Source of the DNA: an uncultured Polyangiaceae bacterium
GTDB lineage: Bacteria; Acidobacteriota; Thermoanaerobaculia; Multivoradales; JAHEKO01
DNA: 64,000 bases
NCBI GenBank assembly: GCA_964195975.1
Contig: CAXMQZ010000087.1
Span: 747 to 64,746 of the forward strand
Reading direction: 5' to 3'
How positions within the stretch are numbered: position 1 is the first letter of the stretch; each line of letters starts with the position of its first letter. The notes under the pieces are model-generated. The model saw only the letters and a list, made by a program, of their open reading frames with translations, made no database searches and was not told where the DNA came from. The position numbers and the translations under genes were made by a program. Positions 30,120 through 54,097 of this stretch are shown here, in pieces.

Positions 30120-30137
30120 AAGTCCGTCCAAGTTCTG

Positions 30138-32664: not shown

Positions 32665-32943
32665 ATGCTTGAATTCATCCTTATCTCTGGCCTGATGATC
32701 GCGGTTGCGATCTTCGGCGTTATCCTCTTCGTGCTCGGGTTTTTTCTCAAGCTGGTGTTTCGAGTCCTGCTGCTCCCATTTGCGCTTCTCGGTGGTGTCT
32801 TGAAAGTTGTGCTACTTCTTCCGCTGCTGATAGTTGGGTTGGTGGTGGCACCGGTCATATTTGCCGTGTTGCTCCTGATGGCGCTACCGATCCTGCTCTT
32901 GATGGGTCTATTCGGCTTCGGTTGGGCTGTCGTAGCTGCCTGA
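32665..32943 (+). CDS. small hydrophobic membrane protein (hypothetical)
   Basis: About 92 aa with 3 predicted TM helices. An AGGAGG ribosome-binding site lies 8 nt upstream of ATG 32665. Confidence 0.3.
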   Translation: MLEFILISGLMIAVAIFGVILFVLGFFLKLVFRVLLLPFALLGGVLKVVLLLPLLIVGLVVAPVIFAVLLLMALPILLLMGLFGFGWAVVAA

Positions 32944-33093
32944 CACCACTCCTGGCCACCGCTGCGAGACACGCCGTCCCCACGACTCTGGCAGGTCCGA
33001 CCCTCTAGCAGGTTGAGGCGACGATATACTGGTCGAAGATCTGTCGTTGTTCAACGTTTGCCCAAATTATTCATGGGGGCTAGGAGGGACGAG

Positions 33094-33684: not shown

Positions 33685-33695
33685 GGTCTCTCGAA

Positions 33696-35280: not shown

Positions 35281-35411
35281 ACAGCCTTGGCACGATCCTC
35301 TTGTTTTGTCGGCTTCGACAGCCCTGTGTAGCCTCGCACAGACCCAAAACCAGAATAAACGATAGGATTCGGGGGCGAATCGGCCTCAAAAGCCGATCAG
35401 GGAAGTCACTA

Positions 35412-40186: not shown

Positions 40187-41307
40187 GGCCAGTCGTCCGA
40201 TGGGCTCAAGAACGACCCTCGCGTGGCCATAGCAAGCCGCCAGAAGGCACTCGATGCTTCGGGGTCTCCCTCCATCGGGAAGAGGATTACGTTGACGGGA
40301 ATGCTCTTGGGTAGCTGATCAAAAGCTCGATTGAACAGCTTGAGTCGCTGTTTGGCGCTGACCTTGTTGGATTTCGGGGGGGTGCGTCCCATCGTAGGTA
40401 GGCCATCGACCAGCAGCACGATATTGTCCGGTTTGGGCTGGAGCGTTGCCACTGATTCGAATGCCCTGTACAGATTGGTACCCTTGTCCGGTGGGGTGAT
40501 CCGGAGGCGCTCGACCGCCTCGTCCAAAAAACCGGGATCGTTGGCTCGCAACCAGGTCCCTTTGGTGTCGGGGATCAAGGATTCAACCCTCTCATTGAAC
40601 GTATAAATCTGAAACTGACTGTCCTCGGGCATTTGGGCCGTTAACCAGTCGACGGTAGCAACAGCCTGACGCCACTTGCCAGACAGAATTTTCTGACGGT
40701 CAGGGAGGTTCCGTCGCCGAATCACATTGACCACAGTAGAGCCCAACATGCTTGCGGAGCTATCCACCAAGATTAGGATCCTGTTTCCACCTACTTTCAA
40801 TCCGGTCAAATACTGACGAGTCCCGTCGCCAATGACCGTGCGGATCTGATCACCTCCTGAGTCTCCTTCGGTCACCGCTAGGGCGGCAAATCGCCGAGTA
40901 CTCTCCTCGAGCGATTTCAAATCGGCCATCAACTTGTTGAGATGCTCCTGCTGCGCAAGACTGAGGTTCTCGTGTGTAGCGAGCTCGACTTGAAGGGCCT
41001 CGATCTCTTCGATGAGCCGTCTAGACAGCCCTTGCGCGATAACTTTTTTCTTGACGATGTCTCGAAGCGAGTTGCGAAGCTCGACGAGTCGCTCATGACC
41101 TTCCAGCACTTCGTAGTCCAGCCGGTCCACTTCGGCCTGCAGGTCTTCGGTCATCCTGTCGGATCTCAGACCCACCGAGGCATTGATCACCATGAACAAG
41201 AGCACCACGGAGCCAAAGCCGCACGTCATCGCATCTAGAAACGACAGGCTGAAGACGCTCGCTTGACCTCTTGACGCTCGTCTAGCCATCGTTCTCCAAC
41301 ACGACAA
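40183..41307 (-). CDS. ExbD/TolR-like TM anchor + coiled coil + vWA domain protein (paralog 1)
   Basis: The N-terminus FSLSFLDAMTCGFGSVVLLF is followed by a coiled coil and the vWA motif ILILVDSSASM. Confidence 0.6.
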   Translation of the reverse strand: MSCWRTMARRASRGQASVFSLSFLDAMTCGFGSVVLLFMVINASVGLRSDRMTEDLQAEVDRLDYEVLEGHERLVELRNSLRDIVKKKVIAQGLSRRLIEEIEALQVELATHENLSLAQQEHLNKLMADLKSLEESTRRFAALAVTEGDSGGDQIRTVIGDGTRQYLTGLKVGGNRILILVDSSASMLGSTVVNVIRRRNLPDRQKILSGKWRQAVATVDWLTAQMPEDSQFQIYTFNERVESLIPDTKGTWLRANDPGFLDEAVERLRITPPDKGTNLYRAFESVATLQPKPDNIVLLVDGLPTMGRTPPKSNKVSAKQRLKLFNRAFDQLPKSIPVNVILFPMEGDPEASSAFWRLAMATRGSFLSPSDDWP

Positions 41308-42691
41308 TCAACGGAATTTCGATACCAGGGCTTCCCAAACCGAGACGATCTCCTGCTTCGGCTTCACAAGTTCCGTCGATCGGTCGGTCGTTGAGGTAGG
41401 TCCCATAGGTACTGTGGTCCTCGATCAGAACCCGATCACCATCTCGGCGGATATGGCAGTGAGATCTCGAGACACCAGTGGTGTCTCCCGTCAGGTTTAC
41501 ACCCCGTTGATCACCAGCCAGGGCCACACCCAACCAGAACGGTTCCTCCCCAATTGGATAGGCGGTGCCACCGTAGACCAGGTGAGTCGGTGGACGCCTC
41601 GCCAGAGTCGGGGCTGTTGTGACGATCGGCTGTTCTCCAGGCTGTGTCGCCACGATATCGACCGTCGGTTTACCCAGTCGAACCACAAAAGGAAGCTCAT
41701 CACCTTCGGCCTCGATTTGGAGGCGATTGACCAGAGCACCAACCGCCGCTGCTCCTTCGGGCAGGACGACGACGTCGGTTCCACTCAGTTCGGCCAACCT
41801 GGATTGCAGCCCTGGAATCGCCGCAGCGCGCGAAGTCAACAGGATCTGCGGCGCGTCTCCTGACGCCGTAAGCGCTCCTGCCAGATTCGAGACTGTTCTG
41901 AGTTGATCTTGCACAGCTGCGATGAACTGACTCCTCGCAACGTCGATCGTATAGATCCGACCTCCATACTCGAGACTCACCTCTGCGACGTCTTCGTCTC
42001 TCAACATGTCCAGCCAAGCCGGCAAGCTGTCGTAGAGAGCCTGCTCGCTGGCTGCGTTGTGCAAAGGGTCGAAACGGGTACTGCGCACAAACTGCCCTGC
42101 GATGAGCTTCGCCCACAGGTCCTGCATCGTGGCAAGACCAACAGCCCCGCTCTCTTGGACCCGCTGGCGGACAAGGCCCGAAGTCTGATCCATCTCGGTC
42201 CAGACAAACCGATGTAGAAGAATCTCCAGATGAAGTATCCGATCGGCGTTCGAGTGACCAGCAACAGATGCGAGCGCGCTATCTACCAGCCCGGAGACAG
42301 GCATCCCGGCGGATCGGGCGATGCCGAGCAGCAGGCCTAGCTGCCAGGTCAGAAACGACCCCGGTACGGCCAGCAACATGCCCTCGACCCCGTCGCCGTC
42401 ACGAGTTGCACTGACAGCCTCCTTCGACAAAGCTTCGAGGTGTCGGTGAACCAGATCCGCCTGAGTGAGCTGTTCGGGGAATGGCCGAGGCAGGGAGTCG
42501 GTACCCAGACTATCCCAGAAGTCATTCAGCGAGCGACGCGGGTTGAGCCGCGCCTGGGCTCTTGCTTCTTGGCCAACAACCACCGATGTGCCGTCCAAGA
42601 GAGCATAACCAGGACTTGGGCCCACGATCAGCCCCTGGCCGTCCGAGATCAAAATGCCCGGGTCGGTAAGCTCGATCGCCAGAATAGACAC
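41282..42691 (-). CDS. Hsp70/actin-fold (possibly catalytically degenerate) protein with C-terminal FHA domain
   Basis: The N-terminus AIELTDPGILIS...VVVGQEARAQARLNPRRSL resembles DnaK GIDLGTTNS...VGQPAKRQAVTNP. The C-terminal FHA signature is GVSRSHCHIRRDGDRVLIEDHSTYGTYLNDRPI. Confidence 0.55.
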   Translation of the reverse strand: MSILAIELTDPGILISDGQGLIVGPSPGYALLDGTSVVVGQEARAQARLNPRRSLNDFWDSLGTDSLPRPFPEQLTQADLVHRHLEALSKEAVSATRDGDGVEGMLLAVPGSFLTWQLGLLLGIARSAGMPVSGLVDSALASVAGHSNADRILHLEILLHRFVWTEMDQTSGLVRQRVQESGAVGLATMQDLWAKLIAGQFVRSTRFDPLHNAASEQALYDSLPAWLDMLRDEDVAEVSLEYGGRIYTIDVARSQFIAAVQDQLRTVSNLAGALTASGDAPQILLTSRAAAIPGLQSRLAELSGTDVVVLPEGAAAVGALVNRLQIEAEGDELPFVVRLGKPTVDIVATQPGEQPIVTTAPTLARRPPTHLVYGGTAYPIGEEPFWLGVALAGDQRGVNLTGDTTGVSRSHCHIRRDGDRVLIEDHSTYGTYLNDRPIDGTCEAEAGDRLGLGSPGIEIPLIVVLENDG

Positions 42692-42741
42692 GACGCTCCC
42701 TTGTCAGACCCGTTGATTCAAAGAGTCCTTCGGTTCCATCT

Positions 42742-43554
42742 TCAGCTTCTTGTCTCCCCGGCTATTTGAAGATGTCGAATGAGGTTTCGGTCGAGATAGT
42801 TCTCCGTTTCCAGCACCAACCTCTCCTGTTGAAGCTGCAGCTGATGCAGCAAGAACATCAACACGATGCTTATGAGTAGAGCGACAAAAGTCGAGTTGAA
42901 CGCTACCCCCAGGCTCTGGGTAACACCTGCAATATCTCCTTCGACCGCCTTGTGGGCCTGACCCAGGGCCTCACCGATTCCCCGCACTGTTCCTAGAAAG
43001 CCTATCGAAGGGATGGCCCAAGCAATATAGCGAACCATCGACAACTCGGAATCCAGTCGCTCTGACTCGGCATTGACGATTGCATGGGCGGTTGTGGAGA
43101 CATCTTGAATGTTGCGCGTGGCACCAAAGCGATCCAATGAAGCCAGCAATGCCCTGGGAAGAAGATAGTACTGTTCTGACTCCGGTAGCGACTGAATCTG
43201 CCGCGCGTACTCTCGCGCATCTTCCGGAAGGATCTTGGTTCCGTCAGCGAGAAGCACCAACTCCTCTTGCAACTGTTTGTGCTCCTTGGCGGTCTCGATT
43301 CCTTTGTACACCATGATCGCAATCGCCCAAAACATCAGGACAAAACAAGCCTCTTGCTCGAAATCTCGAATAACCACCCAGACGGATCGTTCTTGCACAT
43401 AGGATGGGTCGACCTGCATCAGCGCTGTCTGCTCCGCCAGAATCACAGCAGCGCGAGGTCGAACCACAATCACATAGAAAGCGTGGACGACGATCAGCGA
43501 CACCGCTAGCGATAGGGCTTGGTAAACGAACTCGACCGGGTAGTTCTTTTTCAT
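42742..43554 (-). CDS. MotA/TolQ/ExbB-family proton-channel protein
   Basis: Three TM helices with the conserved YIAWAIPSIGFLGTVRGIGEALG and ...STFVALLISI... signature. Confidence 0.75.
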   Translation of the reverse strand: MKKNYPVEFVYQALSLAVSLIVVHAFYVIVVRPRAAVILAEQTALMQVDPSYVQERSVWVVIRDFEQEACFVLMFWAIAIMVYKGIETAKEHKQLQEELVLLADGTKILPEDAREYARQIQSLPESEQYYLLPRALLASLDRFGATRNIQDVSTTAHAIVNAESERLDSELSMVRYIAWAIPSIGFLGTVRGIGEALGQAHKAVEGDIAGVTQSLGVAFNSTFVALLISIVLMFLLHQLQLQQERLVLETENYLDRNLIRHLQIAGETRS

Positions 43555-43567
43555 GAGAGAAGTGGCC

Positions 43568-43843
43568 TCAGATATCCACAGGAAAGGAAACCGAGCTGCC
43601 AGCCGGCAACTTCTCGGTCGGAACAAAAACCTTCAAAGACTCGGTGGGCCGATCTTGCTGTGACTCCTCGTCCCCACTCTCCTCTTCCGGCGCGCCGCTG
43701 GCCTCAGAGTCCGGTTCCTGCTCGGGGGTGGCTTCGACTTGCTCCGATTCTGACCCGGTTTGGGCCACGGACGGAGAGTCCAGCGTCCACAGCCAACCTG
43801 CCATGACTACCGCGGTGAATAGGACAACGACGATCAATTTCAT
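43568..43843 (-). CDS. small TM-anchored acidic, disordered protein (hypothetical)
   Basis: The 91 aa ORF sits between operon genes with 13-14 bp spacers. It has an N-terminal hydrophobic helix followed by an E/S/D-rich region. Confidence 0.35.
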   Translation of the reverse strand: MKLIVVVLFTAVVMAGWLWTLDSPSVAQTGSESEQVEATPEQEPDSEASGAPEEESGDEESQQDRPTESLKVFVPTEKLPAGSSVSFPVDI

Positions 43844-43857
43844 TTATCTCTCCTAGG

Positions 43858-46311
43858 CTATTCAGCAAATCGGGCCACGCGAAAGCCGACATCGGGTCGA
43901 GCTTTGTTGCCATAGTCCCGATAGCTCAGCCTGAGCTCGGTTATTGTCGAATCCATCCAACTCGAACCTCGAATGACACGATAGTCCCCCTCCGCCGGCC
44001 CCAAGGGGTCGACATCAGGTCCTTGCGTCGTCGGTGGCGGTATCGAGTAGTAGTCCTGCACCCACTCGGCGACATTACCGCCCATGTTCTTGACCCCGAC
44101 ATCGTTGGCGTCGAAGCTGTCAACTGGTGCTGTCGCTGGATATCGGTCGTTGTAACCCGAAAGTGTCTTTTGGAGCATCTCAGCTGCCGATTGATCGCCA
44201 TAGTTACCCGATCCTGATGGTACCGGCAACGAATCTCCCCAGGGGAACTTGAGCGCCTGCTGTCGACCAGCAAACCGAGCGGCCCAGGCCCACTCGGCTT
44301 CCGTTGGCAAACGATACCCGGTATTGAACGGTTGCACGAGGACGAATGTGCCACCCTCTCCAGTATAGGCCTTGGGAAGCGAGTCCTGTTCACTCAACCA
44401 GTTGCAAAACCTCACGGCGTCCTCCCAGGTTACTCCAACCACGGGGTGGTCATCTTTTTCCAGACTTGCGCTCTCCGCCCTTCCAGATCGATGACTCGGC
44501 TGAAACTTCTTGAACTGCCGATTGGAGATCTCGCGAGCACCGATGTAGAAAGCTCGTGTAAGCTGAACATCGCGCAGCGTCTCATTGGCCCTGCGGCCCG
44601 GCTCGCGTCGCGACGCGCCCATTCGAAACGAGCCCGGCTCGATCAGCACCAGCTCCTGACCCAGCGAATTACGAAGTGTCGCTGGTGTGGACGCCCTGCG
44701 AACCTCCTCGGGTGTTCTAAGTGTCACCCGAATCTGTTGCGGGAAGCCCGGACGAGGTGTAATGGTCTGCCGAAAGGTCTCGAAACCCTCCTTTTCAACT
44801 ACGATCTCGTGCGGTATGGCTTGCAAACGCAGCGTCTGGTTTGCCCCACCTCTCGATTCGCCATCGACAATGAGCTCTGCATCGGCTGGCCTGCCATCGA
44901 TCTCGATCTCGCCAAATAGGGGTACCAGCTCGACAGTCACCTCGTGTCGTTTTCCGGACACTATTTCGACCGACTCGTTCGAGGCTTCGAAACCCAGCTT
45001 GGATAGACCGATCTCATATGACTTACCTGGCTTGAGCTCCAGCTTCAACGGAGTCTGTCCGGCATATTCGCCATCGATCGACACCGTTGCCTCTCGAGGC
45101 TGACTCGCCAGAACCAAGATTCCATCGCTAGGTTGTAAGACGATTGATGGCAGTGACTGCGGTACATTCGCCTGGACCAGCAGCTGACTCCGATACGATT
45201 TGTACCCTCTCAGACTCACTTCCACCTTTCGACTTCCAGCAGCCACATCGGCTACCACCGGTGTCTTGCCGACCGACATGCCATCAATTTGAATCGTGGC
45301 TCCGGTCGGTTGTGATTTGAATTCGACCGCGGCCCAATTCGGAGTCAAATCAACCGACAAATCGAAGATCGCCCCCGCGCCCTCCACCGGCACCGTAGTC
45401 GAGAACGGGACGTAACTCGGATGAATGATTTCAACAAGGTGGTTGCCCTCCGCCAGCGGCACTGGATCGATTGGTGTTCGGCCGACCGACTTGCCATCGA
45501 CCAGCACCTCTGCGTCACCGCTGGGACGGGCCGTTATGACAAGCAGACCTGGCATCTTCTCTAGCGTGTACTGATAGCTCTGACTAGCCTCACGCGTTAC
45601 TTCGAGTGGTGCTGCCAAAGGAAGATAGCCCTCCTTTTCGAGCCGCACTTGGTATTCGCCCGGGCGAAGAAGATAGCGACCACCCAGCTCGATCTTCAAC
45701 CGAGTTCCGTCGACCGAGACTCGATCCGCCGGCGGATCGCTCGAGATCTCTACAGCCCGGGCGGTAAACAGGAACCAGGCCGCAGAACCCAAAAGCACCA
45801 AACTTGCAAGAACCACTATTCTTGCAAGACTCGGCTTCTTCCTTCTGGCTCGCGTTCGGTCAATCGAAGCCGGCGTAAACTCCACTGGGCTTACTCGCGT
45901 GTCTATCTCATGATCGGCACCCTTTTCCGGCCGAGATCTCGCCTGAACGAGGGGTGGGTCGGTCTTTATCTCAGGGGGTCGATGCGCTATCTCGAAATGA
46001 AAGCCGTTCTCACGTTGGGACACCGAGATCTCACTTTGCCCCAGTCGAAGAATGTCTCCGCTACGCAGCCACTGCGACGCCGATAACGGTGCACCATTAC
46101 AGATCACGACCACATCGCCATCCATGGGTTGGACAAAGAGGTCGCCTCCCTCAAACCCCAGAATGGCCAGCGGTTTGTCGCCGGAATAGCCTGGGATGCG
46201 GATGTCGCTCTCGGGGCCACCTAGATGTAAGGGGAGCTCGTCGGACCGAAACCTGTCCTCTCCATCTGCGTGAACAACCACGATGGCTGTACTCAAATCT
46301 TCTCCTCGCAC
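43858..46311 (-). CDS. FHA - TM - multi-PEGA - FGE-sulfatase (formylglycine-generating-enzyme-like) domain protein
   Basis: An N-terminal FHA domain (..GDILRLGQSEISV..) and one TM helix are followed by at least 5 PEGA-like repeats (..VDGKSVGRTP.., ..IDGMSVGKTP.., ..IDGEYAGQTP..). The C-terminal FGE-sulfatase domain reads RMGAS...HPVVGVTWEDAVRFCNWLS...YRLPTEAEWAWAA...GNVAEWVQD...GFRVARF. Confidence 0.75.
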   Translation of the reverse strand: MRGEDLSTAIVVVHADGEDRFRSDELPLHLGGPESDIRIPGYSGDKPLAILGFEGGDLFVQPMDGDVVVICNGAPLSASQWLRSGDILRLGQSEISVSQRENGFHFEIAHRPPEIKTDPPLVQARSRPEKGADHEIDTRVSPVEFTPASIDRTRARRKKPSLARIVVLASLVLLGSAAWFLFTARAVEISSDPPADRVSVDGTRLKIELGGRYLLRPGEYQVRLEKEGYLPLAAPLEVTREASQSYQYTLEKMPGLLVITARPSGDAEVLVDGKSVGRTPIDPVPLAEGNHLVEIIHPSYVPFSTTVPVEGAGAIFDLSVDLTPNWAAVEFKSQPTGATIQIDGMSVGKTPVVADVAAGSRKVEVSLRGYKSYRSQLLVQANVPQSLPSIVLQPSDGILVLASQPREATVSIDGEYAGQTPLKLELKPGKSYEIGLSKLGFEASNESVEIVSGKRHEVTVELVPLFGEIEIDGRPADAELIVDGESRGGANQTLRLQAIPHEIVVEKEGFETFRQTITPRPGFPQQIRVTLRTPEEVRRASTPATLRNSLGQELVLIEPGSFRMGASRREPGRRANETLRDVQLTRAFYIGAREISNRQFKKFQPSHRSGRAESASLEKDDHPVVGVTWEDAVRFCNWLSEQDSLPKAYTGEGGTFVLVQPFNTGYRLPTEAEWAWAARFAGRQQALKFPWGDSLPVPSGSGNYGDQSAAEMLQKTLSGYNDRYPATAPVDSFDANDVGVKNMGGNVAEWVQDYYSIPPPTTQGPDVDPLGPAEGDYRVIRGSSWMDSTITELRLSYRDYGNKARPDVGFRVARFAE

Positions 46312-48350
46312 CGCACGACCACCGGATCCATTCTTCCCTCTGGGGAGACCTTGAATACACGTCGCACATCGCGGTACCCCTCACGGCTCCCTATCGCGGT
46401 GTAGGAGCCCGGTCGCAACTCGAGCTGACGTTGTTCGAACCGACCGAGCGACCCGACCCGGTAGACCACCACATAAGTGTAGTTGTCAGACACCAGTCGA
46501 ATCTGGACCGGAGTAGAAGCCACCTCGATCACCTGCTCGAGCTGAGTGATCTGGCGTCGGATTCTGGGGCCCTCCGGGAGAGCATCTCTGGCTTGGCCCA
46601 ATAGATCGATGGCCTCATTCAGCACCGGCTGAGTGGAGAATCGATCCGGATGCATGATGTGAAAATCGAGCCGATCGCTCAACTCGGCTCGCTCGGATGC
46701 GAGGCGCTGCCCTTCGATGGCAAAGCGGATCGCTGGGTCGAGCTTCAGGACCGCCGCGTACTCGGTCTCCGCTTCTCGCCAATGCTCGGTACTCGCAAGC
46801 TCCCGCGCCCTTTCGCGATGACTTTCAATCGCTGCTAGACGCATCTGTTGTTCGGCCCTGGCCAGACCATCGGCTGCCTCTCTGGAGTCGGGTCGGACCG
46901 CCAGCGCTCTCTGAAACGCTGCCTGTGCCTCCGAGAAGCTGTCTCGTTCGAGCGCACGCAGGCCAGCCGACATTGCCTCTGAAAAGGCCTTTACACCCTC
47001 GGAACTGGGTCGGCGATTCTGAGGAACCGACAGACGAGGCGGCTCCGGCAACGGCGTTGGCCTGGCAGACGACAGATCTTGATCGGGTGCGGGTGGCTCA
47101 GCTGCAGAAGCAACGACAGGAGAGGGTCGGGCCTCGATCGTCTCAATCGCGTCGCCATCCCCTGAGCTCGGCCCTGTTGACGGTCCTGGGGGCGGCTTGG
47201 CCAGCCCAGCGGGCCCGGACCTACCTTCCTCGGAATCAATTCGTATCGGTTCTCCAGCCTCGATCTCCTCTCCTACATCTTCAGCCGCCTCCGACCCGGG
47301 AACGGCGACCTGAGGATTCTCGCGCACCCAGTTGGGCAGAAGTACAAACACGGCCACCGCCAAGAGCCCAAGAAATCCAAATGCCAAGACGGTCATGATC
47401 CGGCCAGAGCTCCAGCGACTACCGACCCGCCCTTTCGTACGCTGAGCCGAAATAGATGCGGTAGCTATTCGCGATTCCAACGCACGAGGTGGAGCGCTGA
47501 TTCGAATGGGTGCTACCGGACGACCCTCGGGCTTCGCATCCGTGGTCGAGATCACGGCGAGTACTTCCTTCAAGGCTTGTCGAACAGATGCCATGTCCGA
47601 AGGCCTGTCTGAGGATCTTCGAGACAGCATGCTAGCGACCAGGTCATCAGCTTCGACAGGTAGCGAGCAGATCGAAGAGAGTCTGGTCGCCGTGCGACCA
47701 TAGCGGTCCTCGATCGAAGCGAGATCCGAAAAGACGGACTTTCCGGCGATGAGCTCGAACAACAGAGTGCCCAGCCCGTAGATGTCATCCGAGATGGCTG
47801 CAGGCTCCCCGCTCGATTGCTGTGGACTCTGATTGGTCTTCGAACCGCCACCAACCAGCTGCAAGTCTGTGGCGCTCGGTTCGAGCAGACCTGCTATTCC
47901 AAAATCACCGACGCGTAGCCGCCCTTGCTTGTCGAGCAGAATATTGCTGCACTTCAGATCGCGATGAATGACTCCGGCGGCATGCGCGTATTCCAGTGCG
48001 TCAACGACTCCACCTACTTTTTTCAGAATAGCAGGCAGAGAACCACCGAGTAGCTGCCCCATATCCCCGCCATCGAGATACTCAGCCGTGTAGAAGATCT
48101 CCTGATCGACTTCATGGAGCTCATAGACTCGGACGATGTTTTCGTGAACGAGTTTTTTCGCTATCCGAAACTCTTGCCGCAACAGATCAGCCGAGGTCCC
48201 CGAGGCATTGCCCCGCGCCAACTTGATCACCAGGTCGATATCGAACTCGGTGTCATGGGCGAGCCAAACCTCGCTCATACCCCCCGAGCCGATGCTTCGA
48301 ATCGCCTTGAAACGGGTACCGAGATGGCGTGAGCTACTCAAGTCAGGCAT
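46293..48350 (-). CDS. Hanks-type Ser/Thr protein kinase with TM segment and C-terminal TPR-like/unknown extracytoplasmic domain
   Basis: Kinase motifs GSGGMSEV, HRDLKCSNILL and DFG are present. A TM helix (IMTVLAFGFLGLLAVAVFVLL) is followed by a Pro-rich linker and helical repeats. It overlaps the downstream gene by 19 bp. Confidence 0.85.
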   Translation of the reverse strand: MPDLSSSRHLGTRFKAIRSIGSGGMSEVWLAHDTEFDIDLVIKLARGNASGTSADLLRQEFRIAKKLVHENIVRVYELHEVDQEIFYTAEYLDGGDMGQLLGGSLPAILKKVGGVVDALEYAHAAGVIHRDLKCSNILLDKQGRLRVGDFGIAGLLEPSATDLQLVGGGSKTNQSPQQSSGEPAAISDDIYGLGTLLFELIAGKSVFSDLASIEDRYGRTATRLSSICSLPVEADDLVASMLSRRSSDRPSDMASVRQALKEVLAVISTTDAKPEGRPVAPIRISAPPRALESRIATASISAQRTKGRVGSRWSSGRIMTVLAFGFLGLLAVAVFVLLPNWVRENPQVAVPGSEAAEDVGEEIEAGEPIRIDSEEGRSGPAGLAKPPPGPSTGPSSGDGDAIETIEARPSPVVASAAEPPAPDQDLSSARPTPLPEPPRLSVPQNRRPSSEGVKAFSEAMSAGLRALERDSFSEAQAAFQRALAVRPDSREAADGLARAEQQMRLAAIESHRERARELASTEHWREAETEYAAVLKLDPAIRFAIEGQRLASERAELSDRLDFHIMHPDRFSTQPVLNEAIDLLGQARDALPEGPRIRRQITQLEQVIEVASTPVQIRLVSDNYTYVVVYRVGSLGRFEQRQLELRPGSYTAIGSREGYRDVRRVFKVSPEGRMDPVVVRCEEKI

Positions 48351-48371
48351 GGCCTCGGGGACACGCCGGAC

Positions 48372-49610
48372 TCACTGCAAAGACGAGGTCTCGATGGCCA
48401 GCTCCGTGTCGGCGTTGGGGTCACCAGCAAGTCCGGTCTCCGTGGCATAGATTTGTTGAAGCAGACCTCGCCACTTGGCGTACTGGTTTTCGAGGTTACC
48501 GGTAAGGCGAACGGTCTCGCCCTCCACCTCCACCACCAACGGGGCGACCTCGGCATCGAACGAAACCCCGAGCTCCCTGATGGCTTCGCGATGCATCTTG
48601 GCTTCTTTTCCGGTTGCTATTCCGCTTCGCAGCACCATGATGCCACCGATCAGGGCAGCATCCCTGGCCACCGCCTCCAGACCGCTTCCTGGACTGGCTA
48701 CGACAGCTCCAAAGATCGCCAGTGCACCAATGATTTTGCGATTTCGAGCCTTTTTCTTGATCTCGTCCAATGCTATCTGCTCTTCGTAGGTGTAAGAGCG
48801 CCAGTCGTCGTAGGGAACCTCCATCGAAGCAGAGAAGTTGGCGTAGTTCTCATTGAGCGTGTCGATGAACATGTAGTCGCGCTCTCGTATCTGGACGATT
48901 CGGCCCATCATGGGATCGTCTTGCGCAGGCAGCTTCGCTACCGTATAGCGACCCTTCCTGTTGATCTCCAGATAGTCGTCGTAGAGCGTGGGTGCCAAGC
49001 CTCTTGCAAAACGCAGCTCGGAGATCCGTCTAAGCACCAGAAGATCTTCATTCTTCAGTTTTCTCCGAGTCTCGAGAAGCTCATTGGCTATGGCTCCATA
49101 GAGCGCCTCGAACGGCTCACGTGTCTCCAGTTCCTCGCTCTTCGGACCATAGGCGCGAGTGTCAGCCTCCTGTTTGAATCGCTTCTCCAGCCACTCGCGT
49201 CCGGATGAATCGGTGGCGCTTACCTCGACGACAAGCACTTTTCCATTCGACTTGATGATTCGACCGGTCACCGTCAGATCAACCGATGCGGTGTCTTGAG
49301 GCACGACCCGAACGGCACCCCATTGCCCCGTAGACTCGAGAGTCTCTTTCAAGCGCATGGGAATGTAGCGAGCCTCAGACTTTCGAACCTCAGGAAAGAC
49401 CTCGACCTGGTACTTCTTGTCTGTCGTCGGTTCCTCGGAGAGACCCGGATCAAAGAGCTCGATCCCCACATCGAGAAGGCTGTCCTCGGGTATGTCCTCG
49501 CGGGCCTGGATGGCCTTTGTGCTGGTCGTAGCGCTGGTTGCCGGACCGGATAGACCGGTAAGGAAAAGAGCTGCTGCCAGAAAAGTGCATCGAAGCTGAA
49601 GTCGTTTCAT
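48372..49610 (-). CDS. secreted hypothetical protein (signal peptide, C-terminal hydrophobic segment)
   Basis: The 412 aa ORF is in the operon. It has a signal peptide (MKRLQLRCTFLAAALFLTGLSGPATSA). Confidence 0.5.
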   Translation of the reverse strand: MKRLQLRCTFLAAALFLTGLSGPATSATTSTKAIQAREDIPEDSLLDVGIELFDPGLSEEPTTDKKYQVEVFPEVRKSEARYIPMRLKETLESTGQWGAVRVVPQDTASVDLTVTGRIIKSNGKVLVVEVSATDSSGREWLEKRFKQEADTRAYGPKSEELETREPFEALYGAIANELLETRRKLKNEDLLVLRRISELRFARGLAPTLYDDYLEINRKGRYTVAKLPAQDDPMMGRIVQIRERDYMFIDTLNENYANFSASMEVPYDDWRSYTYEEQIALDEIKKKARNRKIIGALAIFGAVVASPGSGLEAVARDAALIGGIMVLRSGIATGKEAKMHREAIRELGVSFDAEVAPLVVEVEGETVRLTGNLENQYAKWRGLLQQIYATETGLAGDPNADTELAIETSSLQ

Positions 49611-49636
49611 CTCGTGTCCCCTACAGTTCGTCCTGA

Positions 49637-50596
49637 TCAGCTCTTGCTGCTACCGGACTTGTAGTCCCGATACTCTTCCCACAGTTTCTCACGAAGCTCC
49701 GGATCGTCCTCGGTCATGGCTGCCTCTCGAAGCTGTCGCGCGATGATGTCGTCGTCGCTTCCATCACCGACATCCGATGGCACCCGGCCACCACCACCGC
49801 CTCCGGCAGATCCGCCACTCGCTTCACCTTCCTGCTCGGCCACTTCTTGTTGCTCGGCTTGTTCCGCGGCACCACCCGACTCCTCTCCTTCAGCCCCGGC
49901 CTCAACATCGGCGATCGCAGTGTCAGCATACTCTCCAGCACCCGAGTATCCTCCGCTTTCGGCTCCTGAGGCGGCCTCCTCCGCAGCGGCCGCGCTCGCC
50001 TCTTCCCGGCGCTCCTTTTCGAGAAGCTCCTGTTCTCGGAGCAACTCGCCATCGAACTCGGCAAGCGATCGCGCCAACTCTTCATCGAGAGCCGCGGTCC
50101 GCTCGCCGGCGGTCTGCGATCCTTGACGGATCGCGCCTCCAGAGGCTGCAGCCCTGGCATCATCGGGTACGGCGGGGCCACTTGGCTCGCTCGGCTCCCC
50201 AGAGGGATTTTCAGAACCCGGATCGCTCATAGAGGCTTTCTCAGGTTGACCACCCTCGGGCCCAGCAGCACCGTCCTCTCCAGAGGACATTTCATCGCTG
50301 CCGCCTTCAGCCGACTCGGCGCCCTCTCCAGGGGGCAGTACCTGCTCGACCTGAGAGGTTTCGGCTCCCCCTCCCGATTCCGAATCCGAAGGTGGCTGGC
50401 TGGGGTCAGAGGGGCTGGATGTCGGAGATGGAGGTGGAGGCGTCGAAGGTGTTTGCGGGGCCGACGGCGAGGGTGGAGTCGGCGGCGGCATCGATGGCGA
50501 AGGAGGCTGCGTCGAGGTACTCGAACAGCCCACGAAGGCCATCGCATGACCGATCAACGCTGCTACCAACAGTAGTTTTCTTGGCTTGACTCTCAT
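49637..50596 (-). CDS. lipoprotein with Pro/Ser-rich and acidic low-complexity regions
   Basis: Starts at MRVKPRKLLLVAALIGHAMAFVGC (lipobox-like). It has PPTPPSPSAPQTPSTPPPPSP and E/A/G-rich tracts. Confidence 0.5.
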   Translation of the reverse strand: MRVKPRKLLLVAALIGHAMAFVGCSSTSTQPPSPSMPPPTPPSPSAPQTPSTPPPPSPTSSPSDPSQPPSDSESGGGAETSQVEQVLPPGEGAESAEGGSDEMSSGEDGAAGPEGGQPEKASMSDPGSENPSGEPSEPSGPAVPDDARAAASGGAIRQGSQTAGERTAALDEELARSLAEFDGELLREQELLEKERREEASAAAAEEAASGAESGGYSGAGEYADTAIADVEAGAEGEESGGAAEQAEQQEVAEQEGEASGGSAGGGGGGRVPSDVGDGSDDDIIARQLREAAMTEDDPELREKLWEEYRDYKSGSSKS

Positions 50597-50774
50597 GACA
50601 TCAGCTCTCGTTAGCAGCGGCAACTCGAACAGGGCGCGATTCTCAGGTCCGGGCGATTCCCAACCGAACATTCCCGATGTGTCCGAGCAGGAACTGATTA
50701 CAGTCTAGCTCAAGCTCGTTCGACCTTGAGAACCGCTGCGTCTACCTCTAAATTCCTAGCAAATACCAGGCCAA

Positions 50775-51731
50775 TTACTTCGGTAGGGGAACTGCGAAGT
50801 GCTGTCGACAGAACTCCAAACGAGCCACAATCGAAGCTGGTTCACTCGAGATCGACTGCACCAATTCGAGACGACTCTGTAGCCCTGCTTCGTTGGCGAT
50901 CTGGATACTGAGACCCGGTCGGGCATTGAACTCGAGAATCAAAGGGCCAAGATCGCGGTCGATGACGATATCGATTCCAAGATATCCCAGTCCCGTGATC
51001 TCGTATCCTTCCGCCGCCATTTCTAGAATCTGGTTCCAAGCGGGCAGAACCATCCCTGCCAGCTTCTGACCAGTGTCAGGGTGCTCGCTGACGCAACGAT
51101 TGTCCAGAACACCCCCCAGGCTAGATCCGGTAGCGATGTCGACACCAACGCCTACCGCCCCCTGATGCAAGTTTGCTCGGCCATCGGAGAGCCGGGTCGG
51201 GAGCCGAGTCATCGCCATGACGGGATAACCCTGAAATACGATGAGTCGAATGTCGGGCACGCCGCGATAGCTCATCGGCGCCAGCGCCTCCGCGGTCTGG
51301 ACGCAGTACTCGACCATCACCCTGTCGCGTTGACCACCGAGGCTGTAGAGACCACTGAGCATGTTGGAAATGTGATGGGCCATCTCATCCCGATCGACCG
51401 GGGCACCGCTCGATTTGAAAAAGACATCTCGCCGACGACCCTTGATCACCAACACACCGTTGCCACCGCTACCGTGGGCTGGCTTTACGACAAACTGATC
51501 TCGAGCTCCCAATAAGTCTGTGAGATCTCGAATGTCATGCTGAGTCGATAAGACAGCAAACAGTTCCGGGACGGGCATTCCAGCCTCGACTGCCAGCTGT
51601 TTTGTGCGTAGCTTGTCGTCGACGAGGGGGTAGAGTCGCCGCGGGTTGAACCGGCGGATGTAGTCGACGTTGCGGCTATTAATGCCCAGCACACCAAGCC
51701 GTCGAAGATGTTGTACCCCGTTATTCATCAC
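50775..51731 (-). CDS. RimK-like ATP-grasp amidoligase (alpha-L-glutamate ligase-related)
   Basis: ATP-grasp motifs are present (..FVVKPAHGSGGNGV.., ..LGYLGIDIVID...ILEFNARPG). The N-terminal RLAN-like region is MMNNGV..LGINSRN. Confidence 0.75.
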   Translation of the reverse strand: MMNNGVQHLRRLGVLGINSRNVDYIRRFNPRRLYPLVDDKLRTKQLAVEAGMPVPELFAVLSTQHDIRDLTDLLGARDQFVVKPAHGSGGNGVLVIKGRRRDVFFKSSGAPVDRDEMAHHISNMLSGLYSLGGQRDRVMVEYCVQTAEALAPMSYRGVPDIRLIVFQGYPVMAMTRLPTRLSDGRANLHQGAVGVGVDIATGSSLGGVLDNRCVSEHPDTGQKLAGMVLPAWNQILEMAAEGYEITGLGYLGIDIVIDRDLGPLILEFNARPGLSIQIANEAGLQSRLELVQSISSEPASIVARLEFCRQHFAVPLPK

Positions 51732-53244
51732 GGCGGATCAGATCGCGGTAACGAAACAGCTCAAGCAGGCGATATCCCGTGTATCGACCCAGCAAGAGAA
51801 TCATCGCTAGAAGAATCAGAAGTACTTCAGGAAAAACCACCACCAAGTACTCGATCGAATCGAGACTCATGACCTGGTAGCAGATTGCGGCGACGAGCAA
51901 GGTGCCAACGCCCTGCTGGATCGCCTCGGTCGGCCCCACCTCCTCCCAGACAATCGACATGCGCTCGATCGCGATCGTCAGGATGACGAGTGGAAAGAGC
52001 GCCACCGATAACCCGATCTCCAAGCCAAGACGATGACTCAAGATGCTGATCGTCAGAAGCGCCAGGACGACCAGAATCAAGACCGCTGCCAGTCGGGGCA
52101 CCAGCAATAGCCTGAGACGGTCCAACAGAAAGCGCAGACCGACTCCTACACCTACGACCAGGACGAAAAGCACAATCCCAGCGAAAAGCCGAGTCTCGCG
52201 AAACGATAGCGCCACAAGGACAGGCAAGAACGTTCCAAAGGTCTTGACTCCAATAACGCTTCTAAGCAATACGATCAGAAAGGCGCCGATCGGAACCAGT
52301 AGCAAGACCTTGTACACCGCCTGTACTTGGATTGGAAGCCGAAGCAGCGAGTAATCGGCTACGGGTGAATCCAGGAGATCGGCTCGCCGTTCAGCAACCT
52401 CGAGCGCTTGAAGCACGTTGCGCCAGGTCGAGATCTCGACCTCGGGGTTACTCGCTCCGACGAAATCGATCAAAGGTCGACCGCCACGCCACCAGATAAA
52501 GAGATTTTCCGGCCGCACTCGCTCCCTTGATCCGGGGCTGTACCAGTGCCATGAAGAACCATCCCAGACTTCAAGGTAGGGCAGGAACATCGCCCTTCGC
52601 TCACCATCCCGCAAATCGAGGCCGTAGGCCACACGAGAAGCAACTTCACCCTTTGCGAGAAGCTGGGTCGCGATTTCAGCCTTGCGCCCAGGAGATCGGC
52701 CGCGAGATAAGAGAAGCTCCATGTTTTCGTCCGGGTCTGGATCGTTGATTCGACGAAGAACCTCGGTGGTGAAGCTGGTGATATCTGCAGACTGAGCCTG
52801 CGCCTGCTCGACGATGGTTTCGATAGCGGTCTCAAATGGCTCACCAAGACTTTCGATCACGACGGGCCCCGGCGTATCCGCATCCTGAACAGAAGGGTCG
52901 GGCGTAACGACGGCCCGGTAGTAAAAGGTTTGGCGACCAGCTGCTTCCCGGATCGCCCACTGAGCTTCGCGCCAGATCTCCTCTTCGACTACCGCCAAGC
53001 CAAAGCCCCGCGAAACGAAGTTCTCGTCGAGAATGACGAAGCCTGGGGGGTTCGAAGGCAGCTGCAACACTGCCTTTACCGGACGGGTATAGCTGTCAAC
53101 GGTAAATCGAGCCTGAACTGTCCACACACGCGATTCCACATCCGGCAGCAGGGGGTATCCGAGTGCCACAACCTTGTAGACGATCAGAGCCAAACCGGCC
53201 GCCGCCAGCAGACCGGCCGAGATCCACAGTGGGACACGGCTCAC
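51721..53244 (-). CDS. inactive transglutaminase-like domain fused to 7 transmembrane helices
   Basis: An N-terminal TM helix and a roughly 280 aa extracytoplasmic domain are followed by a 7-TM C-terminal block. Overlaps with its neighbours are 4 bp and 11 bp. Confidence 0.7.
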   Translation of the reverse strand: MSRVPLWISAGLLAAAGLALIVYKVVALGYPLLPDVESRVWTVQARFTVDSYTRPVKAVLQLPSNPPGFVILDENFVSRGFGLAVVEEEIWREAQWAIREAAGRQTFYYRAVVTPDPSVQDADTPGPVVIESLGEPFETAIETIVEQAQAQSADITSFTTEVLRRINDPDPDENMELLLSRGRSPGRKAEIATQLLAKGEVASRVAYGLDLRDGERRAMFLPYLEVWDGSSWHWYSPGSRERVRPENLFIWWRGGRPLIDFVGASNPEVEISTWRNVLQALEVAERRADLLDSPVADYSLLRLPIQVQAVYKVLLLVPIGAFLIVLLRSVIGVKTFGTFLPVLVALSFRETRLFAGIVLFVLVVGVGVGLRFLLDRLRLLLVPRLAAVLILVVLALLTISILSHRLGLEIGLSVALFPLVILTIAIERMSIVWEEVGPTEAIQQGVGTLLVAAICYQVMSLDSIEYLVVVFPEVLLILLAMILLLGRYTGYRLLELFRYRDLIRRDE

Positions 53245-53750
53245 TTGCCATCCTCCAACGGACAGGTGGGTTCGGTGGTGAACGACTCGCCGGCATCAAC
53301 CAGCGCGACATTCTCGAGAGCATTGCGCCCCAGGAGGACCGGATACTGGAATCCACTCCGGTCGACGAGACTGACCTCGACCTCATCGAGATGATCACCG
53401 AGGCAGATCTCTACTTGTACAACCGGACGGCGCTGGCTTGGCCCCTCGTGTTCTTTGATGTAGGCGTAACGAATCAATCTTTTCTTGTACCGAATTCGGC
53501 GGCCCGAGTTTCTGTCGATAACCAAGAACTCGACCCATCGATCACCGTCTCTCTCCCTATAGCGCCGAATCTTGGAGGCGTCGAGCGACGAGGTGTCAGC
53601 TCCAGTGTCCAGCTTGGCCTCCATCCTCAGGCGACTCTTGCCTATCTCTACCCGCTCGACCCAACCAAAGATGTCTTTCTTTCGAGAGACTGCCCACGAG
53701 GGTTCAACTAAAAGAACCACAAAGAGAAAAGCCGGAAGCGCAACTGACAC
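53241..53750 (-). CDS. retropepsin-like aspartyl protease (Pfam 'putative ATP-dependent zinc protease' family)
   Basis: It has a signal peptide and the LDTGADTSSL aspartyl-protease motif. The conserved partner genes lie downstream. Confidence 0.65.
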   Translation of the reverse strand: MSVALPAFLFVVLLVEPSWAVSRKKDIFGWVERVEIGKSRLRMEAKLDTGADTSSLDASKIRRYRERDGDRWVEFLVIDRNSGRRIRYKKRLIRYAYIKEHEGPSQRRPVVQVEICLGDHLDEVEVSLVDRSGFQYPVLLGRNALENVALVDAGESFTTEPTCPLEDGK

Positions 53751-54097
53751 GATTTTGAATCTCAGGTCGACCTCCGATGGAGTTGCTTTCCCAAATTTCT
53801 GCCTCGACCCTCTTAGGCGTTGGTTCAGAGAATTCTACAGCGTAGACCTCCAACCTTCAGGGCCTAGGTCAGGTGAGCCGCAGAAAAGGTCTTCAGCGCG
53901 GTTGCCGATCCCACTTCTCGGGAGATTTTCGAGACCCTTCGAAACCAAGGACCGCCTCGATCTGAAAGAGTTGCGGTTTGTTCGCAAAGAAGGCTGTGAG
54001 ATGAACTCGGAAGGCGAATCCGGCTCCTTCCACGGAGCCTCCTCGTCAATAGCCGCGTAGGCGAAACAAATCGGCCCTGAGCAGTGTAGTAAAACAT

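What the first reader, a model, noticed from the sequence alone, without database searches (positions are those of the whole stretch)
50775..53750. RimK-like ATP-grasp / inactive-transglutaminase-7TM / retropepsin-like protease triad directly upstream of the kinase-ExbB operon
Three overlapping genes (4 bp and 11 bp overlaps) reproduce the gene triad predicted by comparative genomics to form a peptide-tagging or signalling system. The triad comprises an amidoligase, a 7TM receptor-like inactive transglutaminase and a secreted aspartyl protease with an LDTGADT motif. As far as I know it lacks experimental characterisation. Here it lies on the same strand immediately upstream of the lipoprotein, kinase and MotA/ExbB-like cluster, so all 12 genes form one co-directional block. 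This suggests the triad could generate or sense a signal feeding the downstream machine.
Basis: partly seen in the sequence, partly recalled or inferred. Interest (0 to 1): 0.6.

Follow-up and report, generated by a model that had tools for sequence, protein, structure and literature searches.

The report
rloABC operon beside a separate module
The three genes are a clear copy of the rloABC envelope-stress operon, which was studied experimentally in Pseudomonas aeruginosa in 2025, here in an Acidobacteriota genome, and they sit next to the kinase/ExbB gene cluster only in close relatives, while that cluster carries its own conserved promoter.

Summary
On the minus strand, three overlapping genes encode:
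- a secreted retropepsin-like protease (53750-53241, PF05618, LDTGADT);
- a Transglut_i_TM/7TM_transglut membrane protein (53244-51721);
- an ATPgrasp_ST / TIGR02291 ligase (51731-50775).

The triad is no longer uncharacterised. It is the rloA-rloB-rloC operon of P. aeruginosa (Lormand et al. 2025, mBio). RloA cleaves polyglutamate, and deleting rloB or rloC suppresses the lethality of protease loss in low-salt medium.

The proposed coupling to the downstream kinase/ExbB cluster is weakly supported.
- The triad-then-cluster arrangement occurs only in near relatives (RloB 81-100% identical).
- In 29 of 29 more distant cluster loci with enough upstream sequence, no triad lies upstream.
- Most other triad loci have no cluster within about 10 kb.
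- One relative has the reverse order with opposite-strand genes between. Another has the two 24 kb apart.
- A sigma-54-type -24/-12 element begins 2 nt after the rloC stop. The same type of element precedes the cluster's first gene in 42 of 51 loci, against about 3 expected.

The cluster is therefore most likely its own transcription unit. No terminator was found, so read-through is not excluded. Verdict: a new member of a known kind, of modest interest.

The parts
53241..53750 (-). rloA-like gene: secreted retropepsin-like aspartic protease (169 aa)
   Evidence: PF05618, E = 1.4e-33. Best NCBIfam hits are RloA3/RloA/RloA2, ahead of RimB, all below their equivalog cutoffs. It aligns to crystal structures 9g58 and 9g59 (presumably the RloA/RloA2 structures of Lormand et al.) and to 2pma, and keeps K46, D48-T-G-A, R108 (the RPV motif) and R131 (the DRS motif). 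It also keeps Cys116 and Cys163, which align with Cys residues in 9g58/9g59. A conserved disulfide pair is described for periplasmic Rlo proteases and is absent from RimB. A hydrophobic N-terminus spans residues 3-21.
51721..53244 (-). rloB-like gene: inner-membrane protein with an N-terminal TM helix, a periplasmic inactive transglutaminase-like domain and a C-terminal multi-TM (7TM) domain (507 aa)
   Evidence: PF14400 covers residues 23-180 and PF14402 covers 257-502. The NCBIfam RloB model aligns end to end (12-507 of 508) at 406.7 bits, against an 'exception' cutoff of 900. Hydrophobic segments lie at 4-22 and from 313 to 485. The only Cys is C455, inside the membrane region, so the periplasmic domain has no transglutaminase nucleophile.
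50775..51731 (-). rloC-like gene: cytoplasmic ATP-grasp amidoligase (alpha-L-glutamate ligase-like, 318 aa)
   Evidence: PF14397 ATPgrasp_ST, E = 5.9e-90. TIGR02291 scores 427.7 bits, above its cutoff of 314.2. The RimK-proper model TIGR00768 scores only 50.4 against 143.4. No hydrophobic segment was found.
53751..54097 (.). Divergent intergenic region between rloA and a plus-strand DUF885 gene; presumed site of the rlo promoter, which was not identified
   Evidence: ORF map and DUF885 hit. The sigma-70 consensus scan found nothing here. Sequences upstream of rloA in relatives showed no obvious shared motif by eye.
50758..50773 (-). Sigma-54-type -24/-12 element TGGCCTGGTATTTGCT, starting 2 nt after the rloC stop codon and about 160-175 nt upstream of the lipoprotein ATG. 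It marks the start of the separate downstream module.
   Evidence: Conserved in L011 and L012. An equivalent GG-N10-GC element (at least 9 of 11 matches to TGGCAC-N5-TTGCW) lies upstream of the lipoprotein gene in 42 of 51 module loci. Background is 0.057 per 800 nt. In the window alone the motif is not significant: 27 hits against 23 expected.
39179..50596 (-). Neighbouring nine-gene module, not part of the triad. Genes: acidic lipoprotein (50596-49637), 412-aa protein (49610-48372), Ser/Thr kinase with TPR (48350-46293), FHA-like/PEGA/FGE-sulfatase (46311-43858), 91-aa ORF (43843-43568), MotA/ExbB (43626-42742), FHA protein (42691-41282), VWA (41307-40183) and a VWA-like protein (40186-39179).
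   Evidence: Pfam hits. The module is conserved as a block in all 17 loci with at least 9.5 kb of downstream sequence. The 412-aa protein has 1631 homologues.

Best explanation
The three genes are an orthologue of the rloABC operon in a Thermoanaerobaculia (Acidobacteriota) genome.

**Inferred mechanism, by homology with P. aeruginosa**
- RloC, a cytoplasmic RimK-related ATP-grasp ligase, makes a glutamate-rich, polyanionic peptide or peptide tail.
- RloB, a membrane protein with a 7TM domain and a catalytically dead periplasmic transglutaminase-like domain, is needed for that product to act at or beyond the inner membrane.
- RloA, a secreted dimeric retropepsin with a basic substrate channel, cleaves the product in the periplasm.
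- The system bears on envelope integrity and osmotic tolerance, and unprocessed RloB/RloC product is harmful.

**Relation to the downstream genes**
- The adjacent lipoprotein/kinase/PEGA-FGE/ExbB/FHA/VWA block is a separate module with its own conserved sigma-54-type promoter.
- Its position directly after rloC arose by local rearrangement in a shallow clade. It is not a conserved functional fusion.

**Shown here:** domain identities, catalytic and substrate-channel residues, membrane topology features, gene order, comparative gene contexts and the promoter-motif enrichment.

**Inferred:** the biochemical roles of RloB and RloC, the in vivo substrate, and the actual transcription units.
For: **Identity of the triad**
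- Family matches.
- Key RloA residues, the Cys pair and the signal-like N-terminus.
- No Cys in the RloB periplasmic domain.

**Published function** (PMC12239564)
- RloA cleaves runs of at least 8 Glu.
- R114A and R137A abolish function.
- Deleting rloB or rloC suppresses the phenotypes of the triple rloA1-3 deletion.

**The triad is a unit of its own**
- The order rloA-rloB-rloC is kept in every triad locus fetched where all three genes are visible, from Acidobacteriota, Gammaproteobacteria and Desulfobacterales.

**The downstream module is independent**
- 29 of 29 module loci with p412 at 47-61% identity and at least 4.4 kb of upstream sequence lack a triad upstream.
- Triad loci L001, L003, L005, L094, L096, L097, L103, L106 and L107 lack the module within about 10 kb.
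- One 2.47-Mb contig carries both, 24 kb apart.
- L101 has module, BacA, then AHSA1 and ArsR on the opposite strand, then rloABC.

**Own promoter**
- 42 of 51 loci, against about 3 expected.

**Synteny by descent**
- The T2SSE / Cob adenosyltransferase / PabB-like / LemA / TPM / TPM / hydrolase flank is shared between the window (28407-36632) and L101.
Against: - No terminator or strong hairpin separates rloC from the lipoprotein gene (z = -1.7). Read-through from the rlo promoter into the module is possible in this organism.
- The triad and the module lie within 25 kb of each other in three different arrangements in Thermoanaerobaculia. This could reflect selection for proximity rather than inherited synteny.
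- The sigma-54 element is a consensus match, not a mapped promoter. No sigma-54 activator gene was identified in the module.
- The window proteins fall below the NCBIfam equivalog/exception cutoffs for RloA1-3 and RloB, so strict orthology to the Pseudomonas proteins is not established.
- The Rlo mechanism itself is unresolved in the literature, including the RloC product and the role of RloB.
Confidence: 0.75

Rival explanations
1. The triad and the nine downstream genes form one functional 12-gene system, in which the Rlo triad makes or senses a peptide signal that acts on the kinase/ExbB machine.
For: - All 12 genes are co-directional, and the gap carries no detectable terminator.
- The identical arrangement is present in L011, L012 and L100.
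- The two modules are also near each other in L101 (1.8 kb apart, reverse order) and on one 2.47-Mb contig (24 kb apart).
Against: - Adjacency is restricted to RloB relatives of at least 81% identity.
- 29 of 29 more distant module loci have no triad upstream.
- Most triad loci have no module nearby.
- In L101, opposite-strand genes separate the two.
- A conserved sigma-54-type promoter precedes the module whether or not the triad is present.
- Unrelated housekeeping genes share the same conserved neighbourhood, which fits plain synteny.
- No kinase/ExbB-type module showed up in the non-Acidobacteriota rlo loci sampled, and none is mentioned in the P. aeruginosa study.
Confidence: 0.12
2. The neighbouring acidic, Glu-rich lipoprotein (50596-49637) is the physiological substrate of the RloA-like protease, which would give the juxtaposition a direct biochemical meaning.
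For: - The lipoprotein is predicted to be exported: it has a lipobox (AFVGC).
- It is 13.8% Glu with long acidic low-complexity stretches.
- RloA prefers polyanionic substrates.
Against: - The longest uninterrupted acidic run is 3 residues. RloA needs at least 8 consecutive Glu and did not cleave a DDDDEEEDDD reporter.
- The lipoprotein is conserved as the first gene of the module in 65 of 68 loci, almost all without an adjacent triad.
Confidence: 0.05
3. The ATP-grasp/protease pair is a RimK/RimB-type system that adds glutamate tails to ribosomal protein S6 and trims them in the cytoplasm.
For: - The weak RimK Pfam hit and RimB NCBIfam hit show common ancestry.
Against: - The protease has a signal-peptide-like N-terminus and the periplasm-specific Cys pair that RimB lacks.
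- An rloB gene lies between the two.
- TIGR00768 (RimK family) scores 50.4 bits against a cutoff of 143.4, whereas TIGR02291 passes its cutoff.
Confidence: 0.03

Closest known systems
rloABC operon of Pseudomonas aeruginosa PA14 (PA14_41690/41710/41730; Lormand et al. 2025, mBio 16:e00872-25, PMC12239564)
   Same: - Same three families in the same order, with overlapping ORFs.
- The protease is secreted, carries DTGA and keeps the basic channel residues and the Cys pair.
- The transglutaminase-like/7TM protein has an N-terminal TM helix and a Cys-free periplasmic domain.
- The ligase is a cytoplasmic ATP-grasp enzyme of the TIGR02291 type.
   Different: - The host is Acidobacteriota (Thermoanaerobaculia). 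The paper reports 96% of RloB hits in Proteobacteria.
- Scores fall below the NCBIfam RloA1-3 and RloB cutoffs.
- RloB is only 42-47% identical to the Gammaproteobacteria and Desulfobacterales homologues fetched here.
- No function was tested here.
- A sigma-54-driven kinase/ExbB module lies immediately downstream.
RimK/RimB (RimABK) ribosomal protein S6 glutamylation system of Pseudomonas and E. coli
   Same: An ATP-grasp glutamate ligase is paired with a PF05618 retropepsin-like protease that cleaves polyglutamate.
   Different: - RimB is cytoplasmic and lacks the signal peptide and the disulfide pair.
- The Rim system has no RloB-type membrane protein.
- The RimK-proper model is not met by the window ligase.
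The ATP-grasp + inactive transglutaminase/7TM + aspartyl protease gene neighbourhood predicted by Iyer, Abhiman, Burroughs and Aravind 2009 (Mol Biosyst 5:1636). It is cited as reference 26 in PMC12096838; the paper itself is not held and is recalled from my own knowledge.
   Same: It is the same triad of Pfam families (PF14397, PF14400/PF14402, PF05618).
   Different: That work was purely computational. The experimental follow-up now exists under the name Rlo.
hm2192 of Shewanella vesiculosa HM13 (inactive transglutaminase fused to 7TM; PMC12096838)
   Same: It belongs to the same RloB-type protein family. Disrupting it changes outer-membrane vesicle production and size, again an envelope phenotype.
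   Different: It is a single-gene transposon phenotype in a gammaproteobacterium. Its operon partners were not analysed there.

Membership tests
Rlo system (rloABC) | RloA: PF05618 retropepsin-like fold with a catalytic DTG followed by Ala | tested here: met
   PF05618, E = 1.4e-33. The sequence reads K46-L-D48-T-G-A51. It aligns with the equivalent motifs in 9g58 and 9g59.
Rlo system (rloABC) | RloA is exported: N-terminal signal peptide plus the disulfide Cys pair conserved in periplasmic orthologues and absent from RimB | tested here: met
   A hydrophobic segment spans residues 3-21, followed by SWA/VS. Cys116 and Cys163 align with Cys residues in 9g58/9g59 (criterion). This is sequence-level evidence only; no dedicated signal-peptide predictor was available.
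Rlo system (rloABC) | Basic substrate-channel residues needed for polyglutamate cleavage (RloA-Pa K46, R114, R137) | tested here: met
   K46, R108 (in RPV) and R131 (in DRS) are conserved in the alignments to 9g58, 9g59 and 2pma. Their equivalence to Pa R114/R137 is inferred from motif position, because the Pa RloA sequence was not in hand.
Rlo system (rloABC) | RloB: full-length Transglut_i_TM + 7TM_transglut architecture without a transglutaminase catalytic Cys | tested here: met
   PF14400 and PF14402 both hit. The RloB model aligns over 12-507 of 508. The only Cys is C455, in the TM region.
Rlo system (rloABC) | NCBIfam curated cutoffs for RloA1/2/3 and RloB | tested here: not met
   RloA3 scores 131.4 against 210, RloA 109.2 against 280, RloA2 101.7 against 250 and RloB 406.7 against 900. 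These are narrow equivalog/exception models. The result argues against assigning a specific Pseudomonas paralogue, not against family membership.
Rlo system (rloABC) | RloC: ATP-grasp of the alpha-L-glutamate ligase-like (TIGR02291 / ATPgrasp_ST) type, cytoplasmic | tested here: met
   TIGR02291 scores 427.7, above its cutoff of 314.2. PF14397, E = 5.9e-90. No hydrophobic segment was found.
Rlo system (rloABC) | Operon order rloA-rloB-rloC, tightly packed | tested here: met
   Overlaps of 4 and 11 bp. The same order is seen in every fetched triad locus that shows all three genes.
Rlo system (rloABC) | Function: polyglutamate cleavage, low-salt (hypo-osmotic) tolerance, and suppression of protease loss by deleting rloB or rloC | not testable with these tools
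   Known only for P. aeruginosa.
RimK/RimB system | RimK-family ligase (TIGR00768 / PRK10446) and a cytoplasmic RimB protease | tested here: not met
   TIGR00768 scores 50.4 against 143.4, PRK10446 26.8 against 331 and RimB 72.1 against 200. The protease also has export features.
Single operon or functional unit with the kinase/ExbB module | Adjacency conserved beyond close relatives | tested here: not met
   The arrangement is found only where RloB is at least 81% identical. None of 29 more distant module loci has a triad upstream. Other arrangements or complete absence are seen.
Single operon or functional unit with the kinase/ExbB module | No independent promoter between rloC and the next gene | tested here: not met
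   A sigma-54-type element lies at 50773-50758. It is conserved in relatives and enriched in 42 of 51 module loci. It is a consensus match, not an experimental start site.
Single operon or functional unit with the kinase/ExbB module | Co-transcription across the 50596-50775 junction | not testable with these tools
   No terminator-like site or significant hairpin was found, so read-through is neither shown nor excluded.
Known anti-phage defence systems (PADLOC) | Match of the triad or the module proteins to defence-system models | tested here: not met
   The only hits are generic kinase-domain matches and a marginal MotA/ZorA match (E = 2e-4).

The most novel reading that the evidence does not exclude
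In Thermoanaerobaculia the Rlo envelope system and the sigma-54-driven lipoprotein/kinase/PEGA-FGE/ExbB/FHA/VWA module are functionally coupled. They are found close together in three different arrangements (adjacent, reversed 1.8 kb apart, and 24 kb apart on the same strand). In the window's clade, read-through from rloC with no terminator would tie expression of the module to Rlo-sensed envelope stress. That would give the still-unknown RloB/RloC product a downstream effector.
Probability: 0.1. Interest if true: 0.55.

Novelty: new member of a known kind. Interest (0 to 1): 0.25.

Why it matters
- The Rlo system matters for antibiotic tolerance, biofilm formation and cell shape in P. aeruginosa, yet its biochemistry is unresolved. 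The RloC product, the role of RloB and the in vivo RloA substrate are all unknown.
- This locus shows that a complete rloABC operon, with every catalytic and substrate-channel feature kept, is widespread in a non-proteobacterial phylum. That gives divergent sequences for conservation and co-variation analysis.
- The claim that would have been interesting is that the triad is part of a 12-gene signalling machine. It does not hold up, so the locus itself is a routine orthologue.
- The neighbouring sigma-54-driven module has no characterised counterpart that I could find, and it is the more novel object. It is a separate finding.

Tried and rejected
- **Exact-sequence look-up of the 412-aa protein to find the source contig:** not on record.
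- **Matching contig lengths as a hint of linkage** (7808 and 19920 bp appear in both the RloB and the p412 hit lists): checked and found to be coincidence. L094 and L096 carry the triad but no module.
- **Sigma-70 promoter and intrinsic-terminator scans of 49400-54400:** nothing at the rloC/lipoprotein junction or upstream of rloA. Counts were near the shuffled expectation.
- **RNA fold of the junction:** not significant, z = -1.7.
- **Strict sigma-54 regular expression requiring TGGCAC:** missed the motif. A relaxed GG-N10-GC consensus score was needed. The motif is not significant in the window on its own.
- **Shared promoter motif upstream of rloA in relatives:** none obvious by eye.
- **Iyer et al. 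2009 (PMC3268129):** not held in the library.
- **PADLOC scan for defence systems:** negative.
- **Literature search for the downstream module's domain combination:** only a general paper on conflict systems turned up.
- **Not attempted:** structure prediction and fold search, because the sequence-family evidence was already decisive.
- **Limit of the p412-centred loci:** they reach only about 0.8 kb past the end of the module. A triad downstream of the module, as in L101, could not be scored in them. This was addressed only indirectly, through RloB-centred loci and the contig lengths listed.
Full report
**1. What is in the sequence**

The three genes lie on the minus strand at 53750..53241 (169 aa), 53244..51721 (507 aa) and 51731..50775 (318 aa). 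They overlap by 4 bp and 11 bp.

- Protein 1 matches PF05618 (E = 1.4e-33).
- Protein 2 matches PF14400 Transglut_i_TM (3.7e-47, residues 23-180) and PF14402 7TM_transglut (6.2e-93, residues 257-502).
- Protein 3 matches PF14397 ATPgrasp_ST (5.9e-90), with weaker RimK, YheCD and GSH-S hits.
- In NCBIfam, protein 3 passes the curated cutoff of TIGR02291, 'alpha-L-glutamate ligase-like protein' (427.7 against 314.2). Proteins 1 and 2 hit the RloA3/RloA/RloA2/RimB and RloB models best, below their narrow cutoffs.

The LDTGADT motif is present (D48-T-G-A51).

**2. The triad has been characterised**

A full-text search led to Lormand et al. 2025 (mBio; PMC12239564). The operon is rloA-rloB-rloC of P. 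aeruginosa.

- RloA proteins are secreted, dimeric retropepsin-like proteases with a positively charged substrate channel.
- They cleave runs of at least 8 glutamates. K46, R114 and R137 are important for this.
- The triple protease mutant dies in low-salt medium and has biofilm, beta-lactam and cell-shape defects.
- Deleting rloB or rloC suppresses those defects.
- The RloC product, the role of RloB and the in vivo substrate remain unknown.
- An RloB-family gene in Shewanella affects membrane-vesicle production.

**3. Feature-by-feature comparison with Rlo**

- The window protease aligns to 9g58 and 9g59 (the best PDB hits, deposited as putative ATP-dependent zinc protease domain proteins and presumably the Lormand RloA/RloA2 structures) and to 2pma. 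It keeps K46, D48, the Arg of the RPV motif (R108) and the Arg of the DRS motif (R131).
- It also keeps Cys116 and Cys163, which align with Cys residues in the two top structures. The paper describes a disulfide pair conserved in periplasmic orthologues and absent from cytoplasmic RimB.
- Its N-terminus is a hydrophobic, signal-like segment.
- The RloB-like protein has one N-terminal TM segment, a periplasmic domain with no cysteine at all (so no transglutaminase nucleophile) and a C-terminal multi-TM block.
- The ligase has no hydrophobic segment.
- RimK-proper and RimB models are not met.

The locus works like Rlo and belongs to that family. It cannot be assigned to a specific Pseudomonas paralogue.

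**4. Whose genome**

- The closest RloB relatives in species-representative genomes (67-69% identity) are Acidobacteriota/Thermoanaerobaculia MAGs. Gammaproteobacteria and Desulfobacterales homologues are 42-47% identical.
- Named homologues of the 412-aa neighbour are also from Thermoanaerobaculia.
- RloB has more than 4000 homologues at E < 1e-10. One is 100% identical, on a 7-kb JGI metagenome contig.

The paper reports 96% of RloB hits in Proteobacteria, so this copy belongs to the minority outside that phylum.

**5. Is the triad linked to the kinase/ExbB cluster?**

*The downstream genes form a conserved module.* It comprises:
- an acidic lipoprotein;
- the 412-aa protein;
- a Ser/Thr kinase with TPR repeats;
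- an FHA-like/PEGA/FGE-sulfatase protein;
- a small secreted acidic ORF;
- MotA/ExbB;
- an FHA protein;
- two VWA-type proteins.

All 17 loci with at least 9.5 kb of downstream sequence keep the kinase, PEGA-FGE, ExbB and both VWA genes. The lipoprotein precedes the 412-aa gene in 65 of 68 loci.

*Where the triad sits relative to the module:*
- **Type A, triad then module (as in the window).** Found in L011 and L012 (p412 83% and 78%) and L100 (RloB 88%). The truncated L099 is consistent with this.
- **Module without an upstream triad.** All 29 module loci with at least 4.4 kb upstream and p412 at 47-61% identity lack a triad upstream.
- **Triad without a nearby module.** L001, L003, L005, L106 and L107 (RloB 67-69%), L094-L096 (59%), L103-L105 (62%) and the non-Acidobacteriota loci L006-L010 have no module within the up to 10 kb fetched.
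- **Type B, reverse order.** L101 (RloB 69%) has module, BacA, then AHSA1 and ArsR on the opposite strand, then rloABC.
- **Type C, same contig but apart.** One 2.47-Mb contig carries the triad and the module on the same strand about 24 kb apart, with unrelated genes between.

*Shared neighbourhood.* The flank T2SSE / Cob adenosyltransferase / PabB-like / LemA / TPM / TPM / hydrolase is common to L101 and the window (28407-36632). The two modules therefore belong to a region conserved by descent and shuffled locally.

*A limitation.* The p412-centred loci end about 0.8 kb after the module, so a triad downstream of the module (type B) could not be scored in them. For L013 and L017, no RloB cluster with a matching contig length appears among the top 120 hits. 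This suggests, but does not prove, that those contigs lack the triad.

**6. A promoter at the junction**

- Two nucleotides after the rloC stop lies TGGCCTGGTATTTGCT (50773-50758, minus strand). It is a GG-N10-GC match to the sigma-54 -24/-12 consensus and is conserved in L011 and L012.
- In the window alone such matches are at chance level.
- Across module loci, 42 of 51 have an element of this quality just upstream of the lipoprotein gene. Background density is 0.057 per 800 nt, which gives about 3 expected.
- Where the lipoprotein start could be located, the element lies 74-177 nt upstream of it.

The module thus brings its own sigma-54-type promoter wherever it sits, including directly behind rloC here. 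No terminator or significant hairpin lies in the 178-bp gap, so read-through from rlo cannot be excluded.

**7. Mechanism and verdict**

The most likely reading (confidence about 0.75) is an rloABC orthologue with this division of labour:
- a cytoplasmic ATP-grasp ligase makes a polyanionic, glutamate-type peptide or tail;
- the membrane protein with the dead transglutaminase-like domain mediates its action at the envelope;
- a periplasmic retropepsin trims it.

Next to it lies an independently promoted, separately inherited envelope-signalling module.

Three alternatives are less likely:
- The 12-gene single-system model keeps about 0.12.
- The idea that the adjacent Glu-rich lipoprotein is the protease substrate is unlikely. 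Its longest acidic run is 3 residues, whereas at least 8 Glu are required.
- A RimK/RimB reading is excluded by the export features and the model scores.

PADLOC gave no defence-system assignment.

Novelty: a new member of a known kind. Interest is modest.

Noticed in passing
window 39179-50773 (minus strand); L013, L017, L020, L028, L098 and about 70 further loci: The nine-gene module has a conserved sigma-54-type promoter (42 of 51 loci). Its genes are an acidic lipoprotein, a 412-aa protein with no Pfam match, a Ser/Thr kinase with TPR, an FHA-like/PEGA x5/FGE-sulfatase protein, a small secreted acidic ORF, MotA/ExbB, an FHA protein and two TM/VWA-type proteins. The 412-aa protein has 1631 homologues. 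I found no characterised counterpart (PADLOC negative, literature search empty). It looks like an uncharacterised envelope machine and deserves its own analysis.
   Followed up: partly
L103 12471-15766; also L104 and L105: In a Thermoanaerobaculia-related clade (RloB 62% identical), rloC is followed 12 nt later, on the same strand, by a Peptidase_M23 gene (467 aa) and an ABC exporter (627 aa). M23 peptidases cut peptidoglycan, so this fits the cell-wall link that Lormand et al. proposed for Rlo. It may be a more informative conserved neighbour than the kinase module.
   Followed up: no
L011 5140-5939; L012 5048-5766; L099 8653-9066; L101 8691-9421; L102 261-991: An ArsR-family HTH gene plus an AHSA1/polyketide-cyclase-like gene lie divergently just upstream of rloA in several Acidobacteriota loci. 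The same pair, with BacA, also flanks the kinase module in L013, L017, L028 and L098. In the window the pair is replaced by a DUF885 gene (54098-55936). It could be a local regulator of rlo or simply a rearrangement junction.
   Followed up: partly
L094 11807-12268; L095 3777-4238; L096 4476-4937: A 153-aa gene follows rloC on the same strand in the clade with RloB 59% identical. It carries the PF26512 'SOI' domain in L094 and L095.
   Followed up: no
L011 6002-7916 and 11279-13313: In the closest long contig (ENA ERZ21269322), the rloA, rloB and kinase genes are called as several short fragments. This suggests frameshift errors in that assembly, or pseudogenes.
   Followed up: no
window 13738-23395 (minus strand): A stretch has strong positive AT skew (up to 0.27) and lower GC in the composition profile. 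It encodes NADH:quinone oxidoreductase (complex I) subunits, mostly membrane proteins: Proton_antipo_M x3, NADHdh, and the 49-kDa and 30-kDa subunits. This is an ordinary explanation.
   Followed up: yes
window 10685-12058 (minus strand): A Csd3-like Peptidase_M23 gene (457 aa) lies elsewhere in the window. It is not adjacent to the rlo genes.
   Followed up: no
window 61543-62445 (+); L001 12682-13770; L097 12824-13705; L106 7717-8598: A gene for an approximately 300-aa protein lies 8 kb upstream of rloA in the window. In several relatives its homologues (PF26745 'SPM' in the relatives; no Pfam hit for the window copy) lie just downstream of rloC on the opposite strand, next to an ECF-sigma/HEAT-repeat cluster. 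This is further evidence of local reshuffling of one ancestral neighbourhood.
   Followed up: partly
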